From: a virus
Lineage: Duplodnaviria > Heunggongvirae > Uroviricota > Caudoviricetes
Length of the DNA: 34,950 nt
Virus record (IMG/VR): IMGVR_UViG_2541047119_000014
Direction: 5' to 3' (one strand)
Below the pieces are notes generated by a model. It was not told the origin of the DNA and ran no database searches. It saw nothing but the letters and a program-made list of their open reading frames with translations. A program made the position numbers and the translations under genes. Shown here piece after piece: positions 32,541 to 34,508 of this stretch (its first letter is position 1; every line of letters begins with the position of its first letter).

Positions 32541-33451
32541 TGTTCCATGTTGATAATAATTCCGGCGTGGCGAATATGCCTGAACTGGCTCCGGCGCAGA
32601 GTAATACCACCACCTGGTTTACCGAAGGTGACGGACAAAAAGGTATCAGCTGGATTGGTCAGGACTGGCTGAATATTCTCCAGGCCGAACTGCTGAATAT
32701 TCTGGCTGAAGCCAGTATTCAGCCGGATAAGGCGCAGTTAAACCAGCTTACGCTGTCCATTAAAGCCATTATCGCTGCGAATGCCTTTTCCCGGAAAAAC
32801 AACCTGAAAGAAATTGCTGATGCCGGTGCGGAAGCCCAGCGTCTGGCCCGTGGTTATCTTGGTCTGGGGACGCTTGCCACAAAAAACAGTCTTGGTCCCG
32901 CTGACGTTAATGCCCTGGCGAAGGATCAGAACCTTGCCGACCTGGAGAATGCGGAAACCGCCCGTAATAATCTGGATGTTTACAGCAGGAGCGAAGGTGA
33001 TAACCGTTACCTGCGCAGGGACCAGAATGGCGCGGATATCCAGGACAAAGGAACCTTTATCGATAACCTCGGTTTACGGGAAACGGTAAATAAGGCTGCT
33101 GATGCCCTGCCATCGGCTGGAACCGCCGTGGCAGCAAACAGACTCGCCACCCCAAGAAATATTAATGGTGTTCCTTTTGACGGAACGCTGGATATCAACA
33201 TCACGTCAGGAATGACGCAGTCAACCGCAGATGGCCGGTATGTACAGAATGTTCAGCTTGGAGCACAGAGCTATCATTCACCCGGAGGCAATGAAATGTC
33301 ATGGAATTACAGCGCACCTTCCGGTTGTATGCTTTCCGGTATTAACGTGCAGGAAACCGGCTCCCGGTCTGCGGACAATATCGGTGGGGTCTATTATCGC
33401 CCGGTTCAGATTTATATTAATAATACCTGGAGAACGGTAAGTTCAGTGTAA
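32540..33451 (+). CDS. Tail fibre protein S (constant part 32540-33065 fused to variable part Sv 33066-33451)
   Basis: ATG at 32540 with AGAGGA RBS; C-terminal part is homologous to the oppositely oriented S'v cassette; the gix-like site lies inside the coding sequence. Confidence 0.82.
   Translation: MFHVDNNSGVANMPELAPAQSNTTTWFTEGDGQKGISWIGQDWLNILQAELLNILAEASIQPDKAQLNQLTLSIKAIIAANAFSRKNNLKEIADAGAEAQRLARGYLGLGTLATKNSLGPADVNALAKDQNLADLENAETARNNLDVYSRSEGDNRYLRRDQNGADIQDKGTFIDNLGLRETVNKAADALPSAGTAVAANRLATPRNINGVPFDGTLDINITSGMTQSTADGRYVQNVQLGAQSYHSPGGNEMSWNYSAPSGCMLSGINVQETGSRSADNIGGVYYRPVQIYINNTWRTVSSV
33059..33084 (+). promoter_or_regulatory. gix-like recombination site, left (ttatcgatAACCTCGGTTTACgggaa)
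   Basis: Core AACCTCGGTTTAC matches the Mu gix core as I recall it; an inverted copy lies at 34485-34508. Confidence 0.8.
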
Positions 33452-33461
33452 ACCACAGAAA

Positions 33462-33480
33462 AGGGTGCTGAATGCACCCT
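33462..33480. terminator. Bidirectional hairpin between convergent S and the tail-fibre assembly gene
   Basis: agggtgc-tgaat-gcaccct stem-loop, T-rich flanks on both strands. Confidence 0.55.
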
Positions 33481-33485
33481 CTGAA

Positions 33486-34007
33486 TTATTCCGGTTTTTC
33501 CGGCCAGGGAATCGCCTGGTAATGCCCCTCACTGGCAATATCATTAAAGTGCATTTCTTTAAGCTGTCGGATATACGCCATCCAGCGCGTCAGCTGTAAT
33601 TTATTTTCATCGCTAATCATGTCCAGTTTTAATTCTGTTTTCCAGTCATCCACGGTTTCGTTGGCTTCCTGGAGCAGCGATGAGCGACGCTTTTCAGCAA
33701 CCGTCTTCCAGTTTACCGGCACCTTTGATATCAGGCCATCAGAAAACTGCCAGTTACCGTCAATATTCACACCTTCCGGCAGTTCGTCCACTTCAACAAC
33801 AGTAAAACCTGCCGGATATAAAGCAGAGACATCTTCAGCAACAGAGCAGATAATACCCGTTACAGGCGAAATACAGAGTTTGTATTTCTTTGTAAAAAGC
33901 GGGATAGATTCATAAAAATCCCTTCCGTCCTCACTCTGGAAATACTGAACATCCTCACCATAGGGTTTGTCTTTCGGGTAATATCGTTTGACATTAATCA
34001 GTTGCAT
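33486..34007 (-). CDS. Tail fibre assembly protein (Tfa/U' type)
   Basis: Start placed at MQLINVK (34007); family-typical segments SEDGRDFYE, PAGFTVVEV and C-terminal IPWPEKPE. Confidence 0.85.
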   Translation of the reverse strand: MQLINVKRYYPKDKPYGEDVQYFQSEDGRDFYESIPLFTKKYKLCISPVTGIICSVAEDVSALYPAGFTVVEVDELPEGVNIDGNWQFSDGLISKVPVNWKTVAEKRRSSLLQEANETVDDWKTELKLDMISDENKLQLTRWMAYIRQLKEMHFNDIASEGHYQAIPWPEKPE

Positions 34008-34128
34008 AAACATCACCATGTAAATCAATGATAAAAACAGGAATAATACTATCGCCATATACAGGCAATGCTTGTCTGAAATAACGCATATTTCAGATGC
34101 TGGCTGCTGTGTGCTATGCCCCCGTTAA

Positions 34129-34500
34129 TTAAATACTTGCAGCGGATACCCAATGCCCATTAATACAATATTGTATCTGTCTGTAATAAACACGGTCATC
34201 ACCACCACGCATTTCCCAGTCTCCGTCAGTCTTAAAACCGGTAATCACATTTCCTGATGACAGGGAGTAATTATATTCCAGTCCGCCGCTTAATGCCTGC
34301 GCTCCCAGTCTTACCCCTGTAACATAACGCTGATTGGCCGTTGATTCCGGCATTCCTGACGTAATGTTTATATCCTGCGTGCCGTCAAAGGCGACACCAT
34401 TGATTCTGCGGGCATTTGCCAGCCTGCTTGCTGCAACAGCCGTACCGTTTGATGGCAGGGCATTCGCGGCCCTGTTTACCGTATCCCGTAAACCGAGGTT
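34129..34500 (-). CDS. Alternative tail-fibre variable cassette S'v (no own start; expressed only after inversion)
   Basis: Minus-strand frame is open from the gix-like site (stop at 34501-34503 just outside) to the stop at 34129; encodes NLGLRDTVNRAANALPS...YYRQIQYCINGHW, homologous to the C-terminal part of S. Confidence 0.8.
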   Translation of the reverse strand, partial: NLGLRDTVNRAANALPSNGTAVAASRLANARRINGVAFDGTQDINITSGMPESTANQRYVTGVRLGAQALSGGLEYNYSLSSGNVITGFKTDGDWEMRGGDDRVYYRQIQYCINGHWVSAASI

Positions 34501-34508
34501 TCAGGGAT
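34485..34508 (-). promoter_or_regulatory. gix-like recombination site, right (inverted copy)
   Basis: Reverse complement reads catccctgaAACCTCGGTTTACgggata, sharing the 17-bp core AACCTCGGTTTACGGGA with the left site. Confidence 0.8.

What the first reader, a model, noticed from the sequence alone, without database searches (positions are those of the whole stretch)
33059..34508. Invertible tail-fibre segment carries two variable cassettes but only one assembly gene
The gix-like sites at 33059-33084 and 34485-34508 are inverted copies sharing a 17-bp core and bracket about 1.43 kb. Inside are the 3' variable part of S (+), a single tail-fibre assembly gene (-) and a startless alternative cassette S'v (-). 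The two variable parts are clearly homologous near the site and at the extreme C-terminus but diverge in between. In Mu G and P1 C segments each variable cassette has its own assembly gene; here the orientation now fused to the constant part has none downstream, while S'v plus its assembly gene are silent. Either the expressed fibre folds without a chaperone, the segment is a deletion derivative, or the assembly gene is transcribed from outside the segment.
Basis: partly seen in the sequence, partly recalled or inferred. Interest (0 to 1): 0.7.

Follow-up and report, generated by a model that had tools for sequence, protein, structure and literature searches.

The report
Phage host-range switch with one chaperone gene
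A Mu-like prophage of pathogenic E. coli carries a flip-flop DNA segment that swaps the tip of its tail fibre, but it has only one fibre-assembly (chaperone) gene for two tips, which makes it a conserved, little-described variant of a textbook system rather than a new kind of system.

Summary
Two gix-type sites (33057-33082 and 34483-34508, sharing a 17-bp core) bracket about 1.43 kb. The segment holds the expressed tail-fibre tip (Sv, +), one tail-fibre assembly gene (tfa, 33486-34007, -) and a startless alternative tip (S'v, -).

- **Only one tfa.** No second tfa exists anywhere in the 35-kb window.
- **The segment inverts in nature.** At least 36 complete E. coli genomes have this orientation. 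Seven match my in-silico inverted version end to end, with the recombinant junctions predicted.
- **The layout is conserved.** Two tips, one tfa and a Gin-like invertase recur in at least five diverged lineages of Sp18-type Mu-like prophages. All seven other Gin-type fibre segments I sampled have two tfa genes.
- **The tfa-less tip is functional.** It is under purifying selection (dN/dS about 0.1).
- **The chaperone looks like a generalist.** Near-identical Tfa sits beside different tips, and a related prophage pairs an Sv-like tip directly with a Tfa of this family.

I favour one shared chaperone for both tips. How tfa would be expressed in the present orientation is unresolved, because I found no convincing promoter. 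In this copy ISEc8 sits 13 bp upstream of where the invertase gene starts, so the switch is probably locked. This is a new variant of a known kind, of moderate interest.

The parts
32540..33056 (+). Constant 5' part of tail-fibre gene S (Sc), outside the invertible segment
   Evidence: Residues 1-198 of the 303-aa S protein align with Mu S residues 1-191 (PDB 5YVQ_A, E 1e-49). The full length matches PHROG 1833, tail fiber protein (E 3e-164).
33057..33082 (+). Left gix-type crossover site (TTATCGATAACC TC GGTTTACGGGAA), central dinucleotide at 33069-33070
   Evidence: It contains one copy of the 17-bp core found exactly twice in the window. It differs from Mu gix at 3 of 26 positions. Natural inverted isomers carry the predicted recombinant junction (L006).
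33083..33451 (+). Sv, the tip cassette now fused to Sc ('type A'). This is the distal, tfa-less position.
   Evidence: The tip is homologous to the SfMu S', P2-like H and Yersinia YpM_44 tips. dN/dS is 0.08-0.14 at dS 0.25-1.8 against alleles in relatives.
33460..33482 (-). Intrinsic terminator hairpin between the convergent Sv and tfa genes. It has a good T-run only on the tfa strand.
   Evidence: The terminator scan finds 9 pairs with tail TCTGTGGTTT. The RNA fold gives -17.9 kcal/mol, z -2.7.
33486..34007 (-). tfa, the only tail-fibre assembly (chaperone) gene: 173 aa, a homologue of Mu U/U'
   Evidence: Pfam PF02413 Caudo_TAP 67 bits against a cut-off of 22. PDB 5YVQ_B, Mu U, E 1e-15. PHROG 136 E 3e-57. 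It is the only hit in the window. dN/dS is about 0.16.
34008..34128 (-). 121-nt AT-rich non-coding spacer between the S'v stop and the tfa start, with SD-like GGTGA 5 nt before the ATG
   Evidence: In 13 fibre-tfa pairs where the two genes are coupled, this gap is -1 to 17 nt. In the four spacer types of this layout it is 51-121 nt. About 80 nt around the tfa start form a local conservation peak against the O91 relative. I could not show a promoter here.
34129..34482 (-). S'v, the silent startless tip cassette ('type B'). This is the proximal position, with tfa downstream on the same strand.
   Evidence: Translation gives a stop inside the site followed by an open frame to 34129. The tip is closest to the Mu S G(+) tip, 57% identity. 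It fuses in frame to Sc after in-silico inversion.
34483..34508 (-). Right gix-type crossover site (on the - strand: ATCCCTGAAACC TC GGTTTACGGGAT), central dinucleotide at 34495-34496
   Evidence: It holds the second copy of the 17-bp core and is one boundary of the natural inversion isomers.
34509..34550 (+). Remnant of the short region between the right site and the invertase gene
   Evidence: It is identical to L001 5598-5639, which continues into the gin ribosome-binding site and ATG.
34551..34950 (-). End of an ISEc8 (IS66-family) element inserted 13 bp upstream of the gin start position. The transposase C-terminus reads towards the segment.
   Evidence: Pfam DDE_Tnp_IS66 and IS66_C on 34588-34947 (-). 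There are 100% matches to annotated ISEc8 copies from window position 34550/34551 onward. The junction was compared with L001.

Best explanation
This is the host-range switch of an Sp18-type Mu-like prophage. A Gin-family serine invertase recombines two inverted 26-bp gix-type sites and flips about 1.43 kb. The constant 5' part of fibre gene S is then joined to one of two short receptor-binding tips.

Unlike Mu G, P1 C and the P2-like segments, the segment holds only one tfa. I propose that this Tfa is a generalist chaperone that serves whichever tip is expressed. I also propose that tfa works as a self-contained unit inside the segment, set off from the neighbouring tip by a 51-121-nt AT-rich spacer and carrying its own ribosome-binding site and terminator. 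On this reading Tfa is made in both orientations.

In this particular copy, ISEc8 has landed 13 bp upstream of the invertase start codon. The switch is therefore probably frozen in the orientation where the tfa-less tip is expressed, unless another Gin-family invertase in the cell acts in trans.

**Shown:** the sites, the layout, natural inversion, conservation of the layout, selection on both tips, and free reassortment of Tfa with tips.

**Inferred:** that Tfa serves both tips, and that tfa is expressed independently of orientation.
For: **It inverts in nature.**
- At least 36 complete E. coli genomes carry the window orientation.
- Seven (H42-H48) match the in-silico inverted sequence full length in one piece at 93-99.9% identity.
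- L006 shows the exchanged bases that flank the core.
- Assemblies L028 and L029 carry the same prophage lineage in opposite orientations.

**The invertase.** Relatives encode a 186-aa Resolvase+HTH_7 protein 14 nt after the point where the window diverges. It is 75% identical to Mu Gin.

**The layout is conserved.** Two tips, one tfa and an invertase occur in five lineages:
- the window;
- O91 (L005);
- the L003/L004/L007 group;
- L028/L029;
- L030.

**Tfa is not tied to one tip.**
- Tfa proteins 97-98% identical to the window's sit next to a different proximal tip, type D rather than type B.
- A Tfa only 64% identical sits next to a type B tip that is 89% identical.
- In the non-invertible Mu-like prophage L016, an Sv-like tip (61% identity) is followed after 14 nt by a Tfa of this family (56% identity).
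- Mu and SfMu use U proteins that are 91% identical for a type B tip and a type A tip respectively.

**The tfa-less tip is under purifying selection.** dN/dS is 0.08-0.14.

**tfa looks like a separate unit.**
- The gap from the tip's stop codon to the tfa ATG is 51-121 nt here, against -1 to 17 nt in 13 coupled pairs.
- tfa has its own terminator, z -2.7.
- About 80 nt around the tfa start are more conserved than either flank.
Against: **No promoter for tfa could be demonstrated.**
- Sigma-70 scores upstream of tfa (5.8-8.0) are no higher than in the coupled comparators (mean 5.6, sd 1.2).
- The best site (ATGACC-18-TACAAT) lies inside coding sequence and is only about the 95th percentile of the background.
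- The prophage's own late-promoter-like motif, CCGCAAARCCYGCC-N16-TAYGCT, is present upstream of the lysis gene and of the head gene I homologue but absent upstream of tfa.
- A resemblance to the Mu Pmom C-protein site at 34113-34127 is not conserved in the O91 relative.

**The tfa-less slot may reflect a property of the tip.** In all five lineages it holds an A-family tip, while the proximal slot varies between types B, D and E. This could mean that A-type tips tolerate the absence of Tfa.

**The low dN/dS has a caveat.** Part of it could have accrued in other phages before the cassettes were imported by recombination, because the mosaicism is strong.

No expression data or protein-level data are available.
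Confidence: 0.45

Rival explanations
1. The A-type tip (Sv) folds and trimerises without any Tfa, or needs it much less. The single tfa serves only the proximal tip, so the two orientations give a capped fibre and an uncapped fibre.
For: In all five lineages the tfa-less position holds an A-family tip, while the proximal position holds types B, D or E. No promoter for tfa is detectable in the distal orientation. The distal orientation is the commoner one in assemblies (at least 36 against 7 for the A+B type), and its cassette is under purifying selection. A secondary source states that Mu Tfa stays on the mature fibre tip and contributes to receptor recognition (PMC9608196), so presence or absence of Tfa could itself alter specificity.
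Against: In six of six other phages checked (SfMu, P2_4E6b, 19-1-2, POP15, A4, YpM_44), and in the related prophage L016, an A-type tip gene is directly followed by a tfa or a tfa-sized ORF. Three of these are annotated as assembly or chaperone genes. Sv has no C-terminal extension or Pfam domain that could act as an intramolecular chaperone. From established knowledge rather than a test here, the chaperone genes Mu U and P2 G are needed for fibre formation.
Confidence: 0.3
2. tfa is silent in the distal orientation and that orientation is a partial 'off' state. Particles then lack functional fibres, or they depend on Tfa proteins supplied by the many co-resident lambdoid or P2-like prophages of Shiga-toxin-producing (STEC) hosts.
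For: No promoter was found. tfa lies antisense to the late transcript in this orientation, which the sequence shows directly. The hosts are O157 and other STEC strains rich in prophages.
Against: The tfa-less cassette shows strong purifying selection and intact reading frames in every lineage, which is hard to reconcile with a dead state. Help in trans would require simultaneous induction of another prophage. Sp18 is reported not to be induced by mitomycin C, unlike the lambdoid prophages (PMC2669165).
Confidence: 0.12
3. The segment is a recent deletion derivative of a four-gene Mu-type G segment that lost one tfa, and is therefore a degenerate, non-functional switch.
For: Both tips lack the roughly 240-residue shaft part of Mu Sv. 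Only 34 nt separate the Sv stop from the tfa stop.
Against: The same layout is kept in at least five lineages whose tfa genes are only 58-66% identical to the window's, with synonymous sites saturated. This Tfa is equally far from Mu U (31%) and Mu U' (33%). Its closest relatives (56%) are in non-invertible S-Tfa modules of other Mu-like prophages. No tfa remnant is present. Both orientations occur in nature.
Confidence: 0.05
4. tfa is transcribed in the distal orientation from a leftward promoter outside the segment, on the invertase side, reading through the right site and the silent S'v into tfa.
For: This is geometrically possible. In the window itself the ISEc8 transposase gene reads towards the segment on the tfa strand, so read-through could occur in this copy.
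Against: By eye I found only weak hexamers in the 55-nt region between the right site and gin (sequence). In the flipped orientation such a promoter would produce RNA antisense to tfa. ISEc8 is absent at this position from all complete genomes searched, so it cannot be the general solution.
Confidence: 0.08

Closest known systems
Phage Mu G segment with Gin (also SfMu, D108 and the Yersinia YpM phages)
   Same: - The prophage is Mu-like.
- The constant part of S is homologous (E 1e-49).
- The gix sites differ at 3 of 26 positions.
- The invertase in relatives is 75% identical to Gin.
- The crossover lies inside the fibre gene at the same residue motif (FI.NLGL.ETV).
- Tfa is homologous to U and U'.
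- The invertase gene lies immediately to the right of the segment.
   Different: - The segment is about 1.43 kb rather than 3 kb.
- Each tip is about 120 aa rather than about 310-340 aa, because the shaft part is missing.
- There is one tfa rather than U plus U'.
- A 121-nt spacer precedes tfa, against 2 nt in Mu.
- Tfa is only 31-33% identical to U and U'.
Sp18, the Mu-like prophage of E. coli O157:H7 Sakai
   Same: Same prophage family. The L003/L004/L007 group has the same Sc, tfa (97-98% identity), A-type distal tip and invertase. Asadulghani et al. [quoted passage not shown]
   Different: In the Sp18-like group the proximal cassette is type D with a 79-nt spacer, not type B with 121 nt. 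The passages I retrieved from that paper with a term search do not mention the single-tfa layout. I inferred that these loci are Sp18-like from the shared old O157 RefSeq protein WP_010917875.1 and did not check it against the Sakai record. The window also carries an ISEc8 insertion next to the segment.
P1/P7 C segment with Cin, and the P2-like invertible fibre segments (P88, Fels-2, KP12)
   Same: The invertases belong to the same family (71-75% identity). The principle is the same: alternative 3' ends for one fibre gene.
   Different: P88, Fels-2 and KP12 each have two convergent tfa genes, one per cassette. P1 was not inspected here. That its C segment has two tfa genes is from established knowledge.
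Non-invertible S-Tfa modules of other Mu-like prophages in E. coli and Salmonella (L016-L021)
   Same: These hold the closest Tfa relatives (56% identity), a short S of about 330 aa, and an A-like tip in L016.
   Different: They have no invertase, no second cassette and a tight 14-17-nt S-tfa junction. They also carry an additional lambda-Stf-like side fibre with a DUF4376 protein.

Membership tests
Gin/Cin/Pin-type invertible tail-fibre segment | Two inverted 26-bp crossover sites with Gin-family half-sites and identical central dinucleotides | tested here: met
   Sites at 33057-33082 and 34483-34508. They share a 17-bp core, and the central TC is identical in both. The inner half-site TTCCCGTAAACC differs from Mu TTCCTGTAAACC at one position. 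The outer half of the right site is more divergent.
Gin/Cin/Pin-type invertible tail-fibre segment | Constant 5' part of the fibre gene outside the segment; alternative 3' parts inside in opposite orientations; in-frame fusion in both states | tested here: met
   Translation of both configurations gives uninterrupted S (303 aa) and S' (298 aa).
Gin/Cin/Pin-type invertible tail-fibre segment | Both inversion isomers exist | tested here: met
   At least 36 complete genomes in the window orientation and 7 in the inverted one, with recombinant junctions. L028 and L029 form a further pair. These are different strains. Switching within a single culture was not tested.
Gin/Cin/Pin-type invertible tail-fibre segment | Adjacent serine invertase gene of the Gin family | tested here: inconclusive
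   Not present in the window. ISEc8 begins 13 bp before the position of the gin ATG and the window ends inside the IS. It is present in every relative without the IS: 186 aa, Resolvase+HTH_7, 75% identity to Mu Gin.
Gin/Cin/Pin-type invertible tail-fibre segment | Fis-dependent recombinational enhancer in the 5' part of the invertase gene | not tested
   The invertase gene lies outside the window. I made no enhancer analysis of relatives.
Mu G / P1 C gene content (S-U / U'-S') | One tfa downstream of each variable cassette | tested here: not met
   There is a single Tfa homologue in the whole window. The antisense ORFs are not genes. Seven comparator segments have two tfa genes.
Caudo_TAP tail-fibre assembly proteins (Mu U, P2 G, lambda Tfa) | Match to PF02413 above the gathering score and homology to a characterised member | tested here: met
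   67.3 bits against a cut-off of 22.1. Mu U (5YVQ_B) E 1e-15 over residues 3-147. PHROG 136 E 3e-57.
Caudo_TAP tail-fibre assembly proteins (Mu U, P2 G, lambda Tfa) | Required for folding or trimerisation of the cognate fibre tip | not testable with these tools
   This needs co-expression or genetics.
Mu S-type tail fibre | N-terminal baseplate-attachment part and C-terminal tip domain homologous to Mu S | tested here: met
   Residues 1-198 match Mu S 1-191, and residues 229-302 match Mu S 435-503 (i-Evalue 1.6e-5). About 240 residues of shaft are absent.
Fibres with a C-terminal intramolecular chaperone (T5 pb1, K1F endosialidase type) | C-terminal chaperone or autoprotease domain after the receptor-binding tip | tested here: not met
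   No Pfam domain on S or S'v. Both end with the same short VYYRxxQxxINxxWxxxSx motif as Mu S, with no extension.

The most novel reading that the evidence does not exclude
A minimal host-range switch in which tip cassettes are freely exchangeable modules and a single generalist chaperone gene inside the invertible DNA serves all of them. That gene would be expressed independently of orientation from a promoter of a kind my scans do not recognise.

Alternatively, an A-type tip of the Mu S / P2 H tip family folds with no Tfa at all. The switch would then toggle both the receptor-binding tip and the presence of the Tfa 'cap' on the fibre.
Probability: 0.3. Interest if true: 0.55.

Novelty: new variant of a known kind. 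Interest (0 to 1): 0.4.

Why it matters
Tail-fibre tips and their chaperones are the parts people swap to retarget phages, tailocins and phage-derived delivery particles. A common assumption is that each tip needs its own cognate chaperone.

This prophage family looks like a natural experiment against that assumption. One chaperone gene sits beside at least three unrelated tip types, and a second tip has no chaperone gene of its own. Yet both tips are kept by selection and the segment flips in nature.

- If one Tfa really serves all these tips, it would be a useful universal helper for fibre engineering.
- If the A-type tip needs no chaperone, it would be a useful minimal receptor-binding module.

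It also shows that the textbook four-gene Mu G layout is not the only stable solution. The element is common in Shiga-toxin-producing E. coli, where one copy is inserted inside a Stx phage.

Tried and rejected
1. **Mu C-protein site upstream of tfa.** CTATGCCCCCGTTAA at 34113-34127 resembles the Mu Pmom site TTATGCCCCAATAA. It is not conserved in the O91 relative. The window's own late-promoter regions use a different motif, which is absent upstream of tfa.
2. **Sigma-70 promoter in the spacer.** PWM scores are no better than upstream of coupled tfa genes. The consensus scan found 6 sites against 3.6 expected in 2.2 kb, none of them in the spacer.
3. **Structured RNA in the spacer.** The 8-bp hairpin at 34078-34098 changes on both sides in the O91 relative without keeping the pair. 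The fold of the spacer is not unusual, z -1.2. There were no Rfam matches.
4. **A hidden non-homologous chaperone on the + strand.** The ORFs at 33465-33599 and 33619-33915 hit no Pfam or PHROG family. The open stretch shrinks from 130 to 67 codons in O91.
5. **An N-terminally extended Tfa.** A 190-aa ORF starts at 34058 with MAIVLFLFLSLIYMVMF. Some gene callers pick it, but homology to Mu U begins at the 34007 ATG. Other spacer types give unrelated extensions.
6. **GTDB species-representative scans.** Two scans for this Tfa found nothing. The family seems confined to particular E. coli and other enterobacterial strains.
7. **A long-read-confirmed inversion in the literature.** CP066032.1, listed by Milman et al. 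2023, turned out to be a classical four-gene Mu-type segment and not this element.
8. **The primary TfaMu paper.** North et al. 2019 is not held in the library. What I say about TfaMu comes from a secondary source (PMC9608196).
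Full report
**What is in the sequence**

The window is a Mu-like prophage. It runs from the repressor, transposase A and transposase B genes at the left, through the head, tail and baseplate genes, to tail-fibre gene S at 32540.

S encodes 303 aa. Residues 1-198 align with Mu S residues 1-191 (PDB 5YVQ_A, E 1e-49). 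Residues 229-302 align with the Mu S tip, residues 435-503. The protein is therefore Mu S without about 240 residues of shaft.

The 17-bp core AACCTCGGTTTACGGGA occurs exactly twice in the window: at 33065-33081, and inverted at 34484-34500. It lies inside 179-nt inverted arms that are 75% complementary. Read as 26-bp sites, the left one (33057-33082) differs from Mu gix at three positions. Both sites share the central TC dinucleotide.

Between the sites, in order:
- the Sv tip (33083-33451, +);
- a terminator hairpin (33460-33482; z -2.7, with a T-run on the tfa strand);
- one tfa (33486-34007, -; Caudo_TAP; homologue of Mu U);
- a 121-nt spacer;
- the startless S'v tip (34129-34482, -), preceded by a stop codon inside the site.

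Inverting the segment in silico fuses Sc in frame to S'v, with tfa downstream.

**No second assembly gene**

tblastn with this Tfa, Mu U and Mu U' finds only the one locus in 35 kb. The + strand ORFs antisense to tfa match no Pfam or PHROG family. The longest open stretch falls from 130 to 67 codons in a diverged relative.

**The sites recombine in nature**

The window's configuration is found in one piece in at least 36 complete E. coli genomes. Seven others (H42-H48) match my inverted construct end to end at 93-99.9% identity.

In one of them (L006) the bases that distinguish the two sites just outside the core (GGGAAAC against GGGATAC) have changed places. This is what a crossover within the core predicts.

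A second pair of assemblies from another lineage (L028, L029) also differs only in orientation. These are comparisons between strains, not within one culture.

**The invertase and the IS**

In relatives, a 186-aa Resolvase+HTH_7 protein that is 75% identical to Mu Gin starts 14 nt beyond the point where the window diverges.

In the window, an ISEc8 (IS66-family) end begins at about 34551. That is 13 bp upstream of the position of the gin ATG and inside its ribosome-binding region. None of the complete genomes searched has the IS at this place.

This copy is therefore probably locked. The caveat is that Gin-family invertases are known to substitute for one another (established knowledge, not tested here).

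**How unusual the single tfa is**

Seven other Gin-type fibre segments all have two convergent tfa genes: Mu, SfMu, Yersinia YpM_44, a Mu-like prophage in FDAARGOS_1059, P88, Fels-2 and KP12.

The layout seen here (two tips, one tfa, one invertase) recurs in at least five lineages of the same prophage family:

| Lineage | Tips (distal + proximal) | Spacer before tfa |
|---|---|---|
| Window | A + B | 121 nt |
| O91 relative (L005) | A + B | 120 nt |
| L003/L004/L007 group | A + D | 79 nt |
| L028/L029 | A + E | 51 nt |
| L030 | A-like + E' | 52 nt |

The Tfa proteins of the diverged lineages are 58-66% identical to the window's, with synonymous sites saturated where measured (window against O91). 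The layout is therefore old and stable, not a recent deletion.

Asadulghani et al. [quoted passage not shown] The passages I retrieved from that paper do not mention the single tfa. My term searches of the paper library found no description of a single-tfa layout.

**Is the tfa-less tip used?**

Alleles of the A-type cassette differ by dS 0.25-1.8 with dN/dS 0.08-0.14. This is the same range as the proximal tips (0.10-0.16 at comparable divergence) and tfa (about 0.16). All alleles are intact.

One caveat applies. The region is highly mosaic. Window and O91 share 140-180-nt tracts of 100% identity in both tips, while Sc and tfa are about 70% and 66% identical. Part of the constraint may therefore have acted in other genomes.

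**Does the A-type tip normally have a chaperone?**

In six of six other phages checked, and in the non-invertible Mu-like prophage L016, an A-type tip gene is followed within 2-17 nt by a tfa or a tfa-sized ORF in the tfa position. Three of these ORFs are annotated as assembly or chaperone genes.

The L016 Tfa belongs to the same family as the window's (56% identity), so this family does accompany A-type tips elsewhere. SfMu (A-type tip) and Mu (B-type tip) use U proteins that are 91% identical.

Within the family studied here, Tfa and tips reassort freely. A Tfa 97-98% identical to the window's sits next to type B in the window and next to type D in the L003/L004/L007 group. A Tfa 64% identical sits next to type B in O91. 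This is what a generalist chaperone would look like.

**How would tfa be expressed in the present orientation?**

This is the unresolved step. In the window orientation tfa is antisense to the late transcript.

Points in favour of tfa being a separate unit:
- The gap between the proximal tip's stop codon and the tfa ATG is 51-121 nt and AT-rich in all four spacer types. It is -1 to 17 nt in 13 coupled fibre-tfa pairs.
- tfa has its own Shine-Dalgarno sequence and terminator.
- About 80 nt around the tfa start form a conservation peak between the window and O91.

Points against:
- Sigma-70 scores upstream of tfa are no higher than in the coupled comparators.
- The late-promoter-like motif I could define in this prophage is CCGCAAARCCYGCC-N16-TAYGCT. 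It lies upstream of the lysis gene and of the head gene I homologue and is absent upstream of tfa.
- The resemblance to the Mu Pmom C-protein site is not conserved.
- The tfa-less slot is always occupied by an A-family tip, which could mean that such tips tolerate the lack of Tfa.

**Verdict**

The element is a genuine, naturally switching Gin-type host-range segment. Its gene content fails one defining feature of the Mu G / P1 C layout, namely one tfa per cassette. I therefore file it as a new variant of a known kind.

My estimates for the mechanism:

| Explanation | Probability |
|---|---|
| One shared generalist Tfa, made in both orientations | about 0.45 |
| A-type tip independent of Tfa | about 0.3 |
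| Off state, or helper-dependent | about 0.12 |
| Promoter outside the segment | about 0.08 |
| Recent deletion | about 0.05 |

Interest is moderate. The finding would not overturn anything, but it offers a clean natural test of chaperone-tip specificity.

Noticed in passing
window 34551-34950: The end of an ISEc8 (IS66-family) element is inserted 13 bp upstream of where the gin invertase gene starts in relatives. Its transposase C-terminus (34588-34947, -) reads towards the invertible segment. None of the complete E. coli genomes searched has an IS at this position.
   Followed up: partly
window 11150-11199 and 19068-19117 (also 10651-10664): Two copies of CCGCAAARCCYGCC are each followed after 16 nt by TAYGCT. 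One lies upstream of the lysis gene and one upstream of the head gene I homologue. They are probably the late promoters of this prophage and differ from the Mu Pmom C-protein site. A related motif lies upstream of the C homologue.
   Followed up: partly
window 33240-33420 and 34219-34360 in inverted coordinates, compared with L005: The window and the O91:H21 prophage are about 70% identical in Sc and about 66% in tfa. Yet they share 140-180-nt tracts of 100% identity inside both tip cassettes, which points to recent exchange or gene conversion of tips alone.
   Followed up: partly
L003, L004, L005, L007, L028-L030 and the window: In all five lineages with the single-tfa layout, the tfa-less (distal) slot holds an A-family tip (VQ[ED][TV]G..[ST][AS]DN[IV]GGVYYRP). 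The slot next to tfa holds unrelated tip types B, D or E.
   Followed up: partly
window 34008-34058 (-): The tfa ORF is open for 17 more codons upstream (MAIVLFLFLSLIYMVMF, hydrophobic). Several gene callers report 190-aa products with this leader almost unchanged even where the Tfa body is only 60-65% identical. Homology to Mu U starts at the 34007 ATG, so the extension is probably not translated, but its conservation is unexplained.
   Followed up: partly
L001 5465-5650; L004 1139-2029; L007: There are RefSeq annotation problems in relatives. The silent S'v cassette is annotated as a 61-aa hypothetical protein on the wrong strand. In the L004 and L007 genomes the intact 296-aa S gene is not annotated at all; only a 67-aa 'tail fiber protein' is.
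   Followed up: no
L001 6324-8973 (relatives, downstream of gin): Between gin and com/mom the relatives carry cargo that Mu lacks: a 679-aa SASA/DUF6645 protein (a sialate O-acetylesterase-like gene typical of STEC prophages), a DUF1378 gene and a DUF826 gene.
   Followed up: no
L003 (LC727881.1 35677-75644): A copy of this Mu-like prophage is inserted inside a Stx2c-converting phage genome, and another inside a Stx1a phage (LC727895.1). Both carry the window-like orientation with a type D silent cassette.
   Followed up: no
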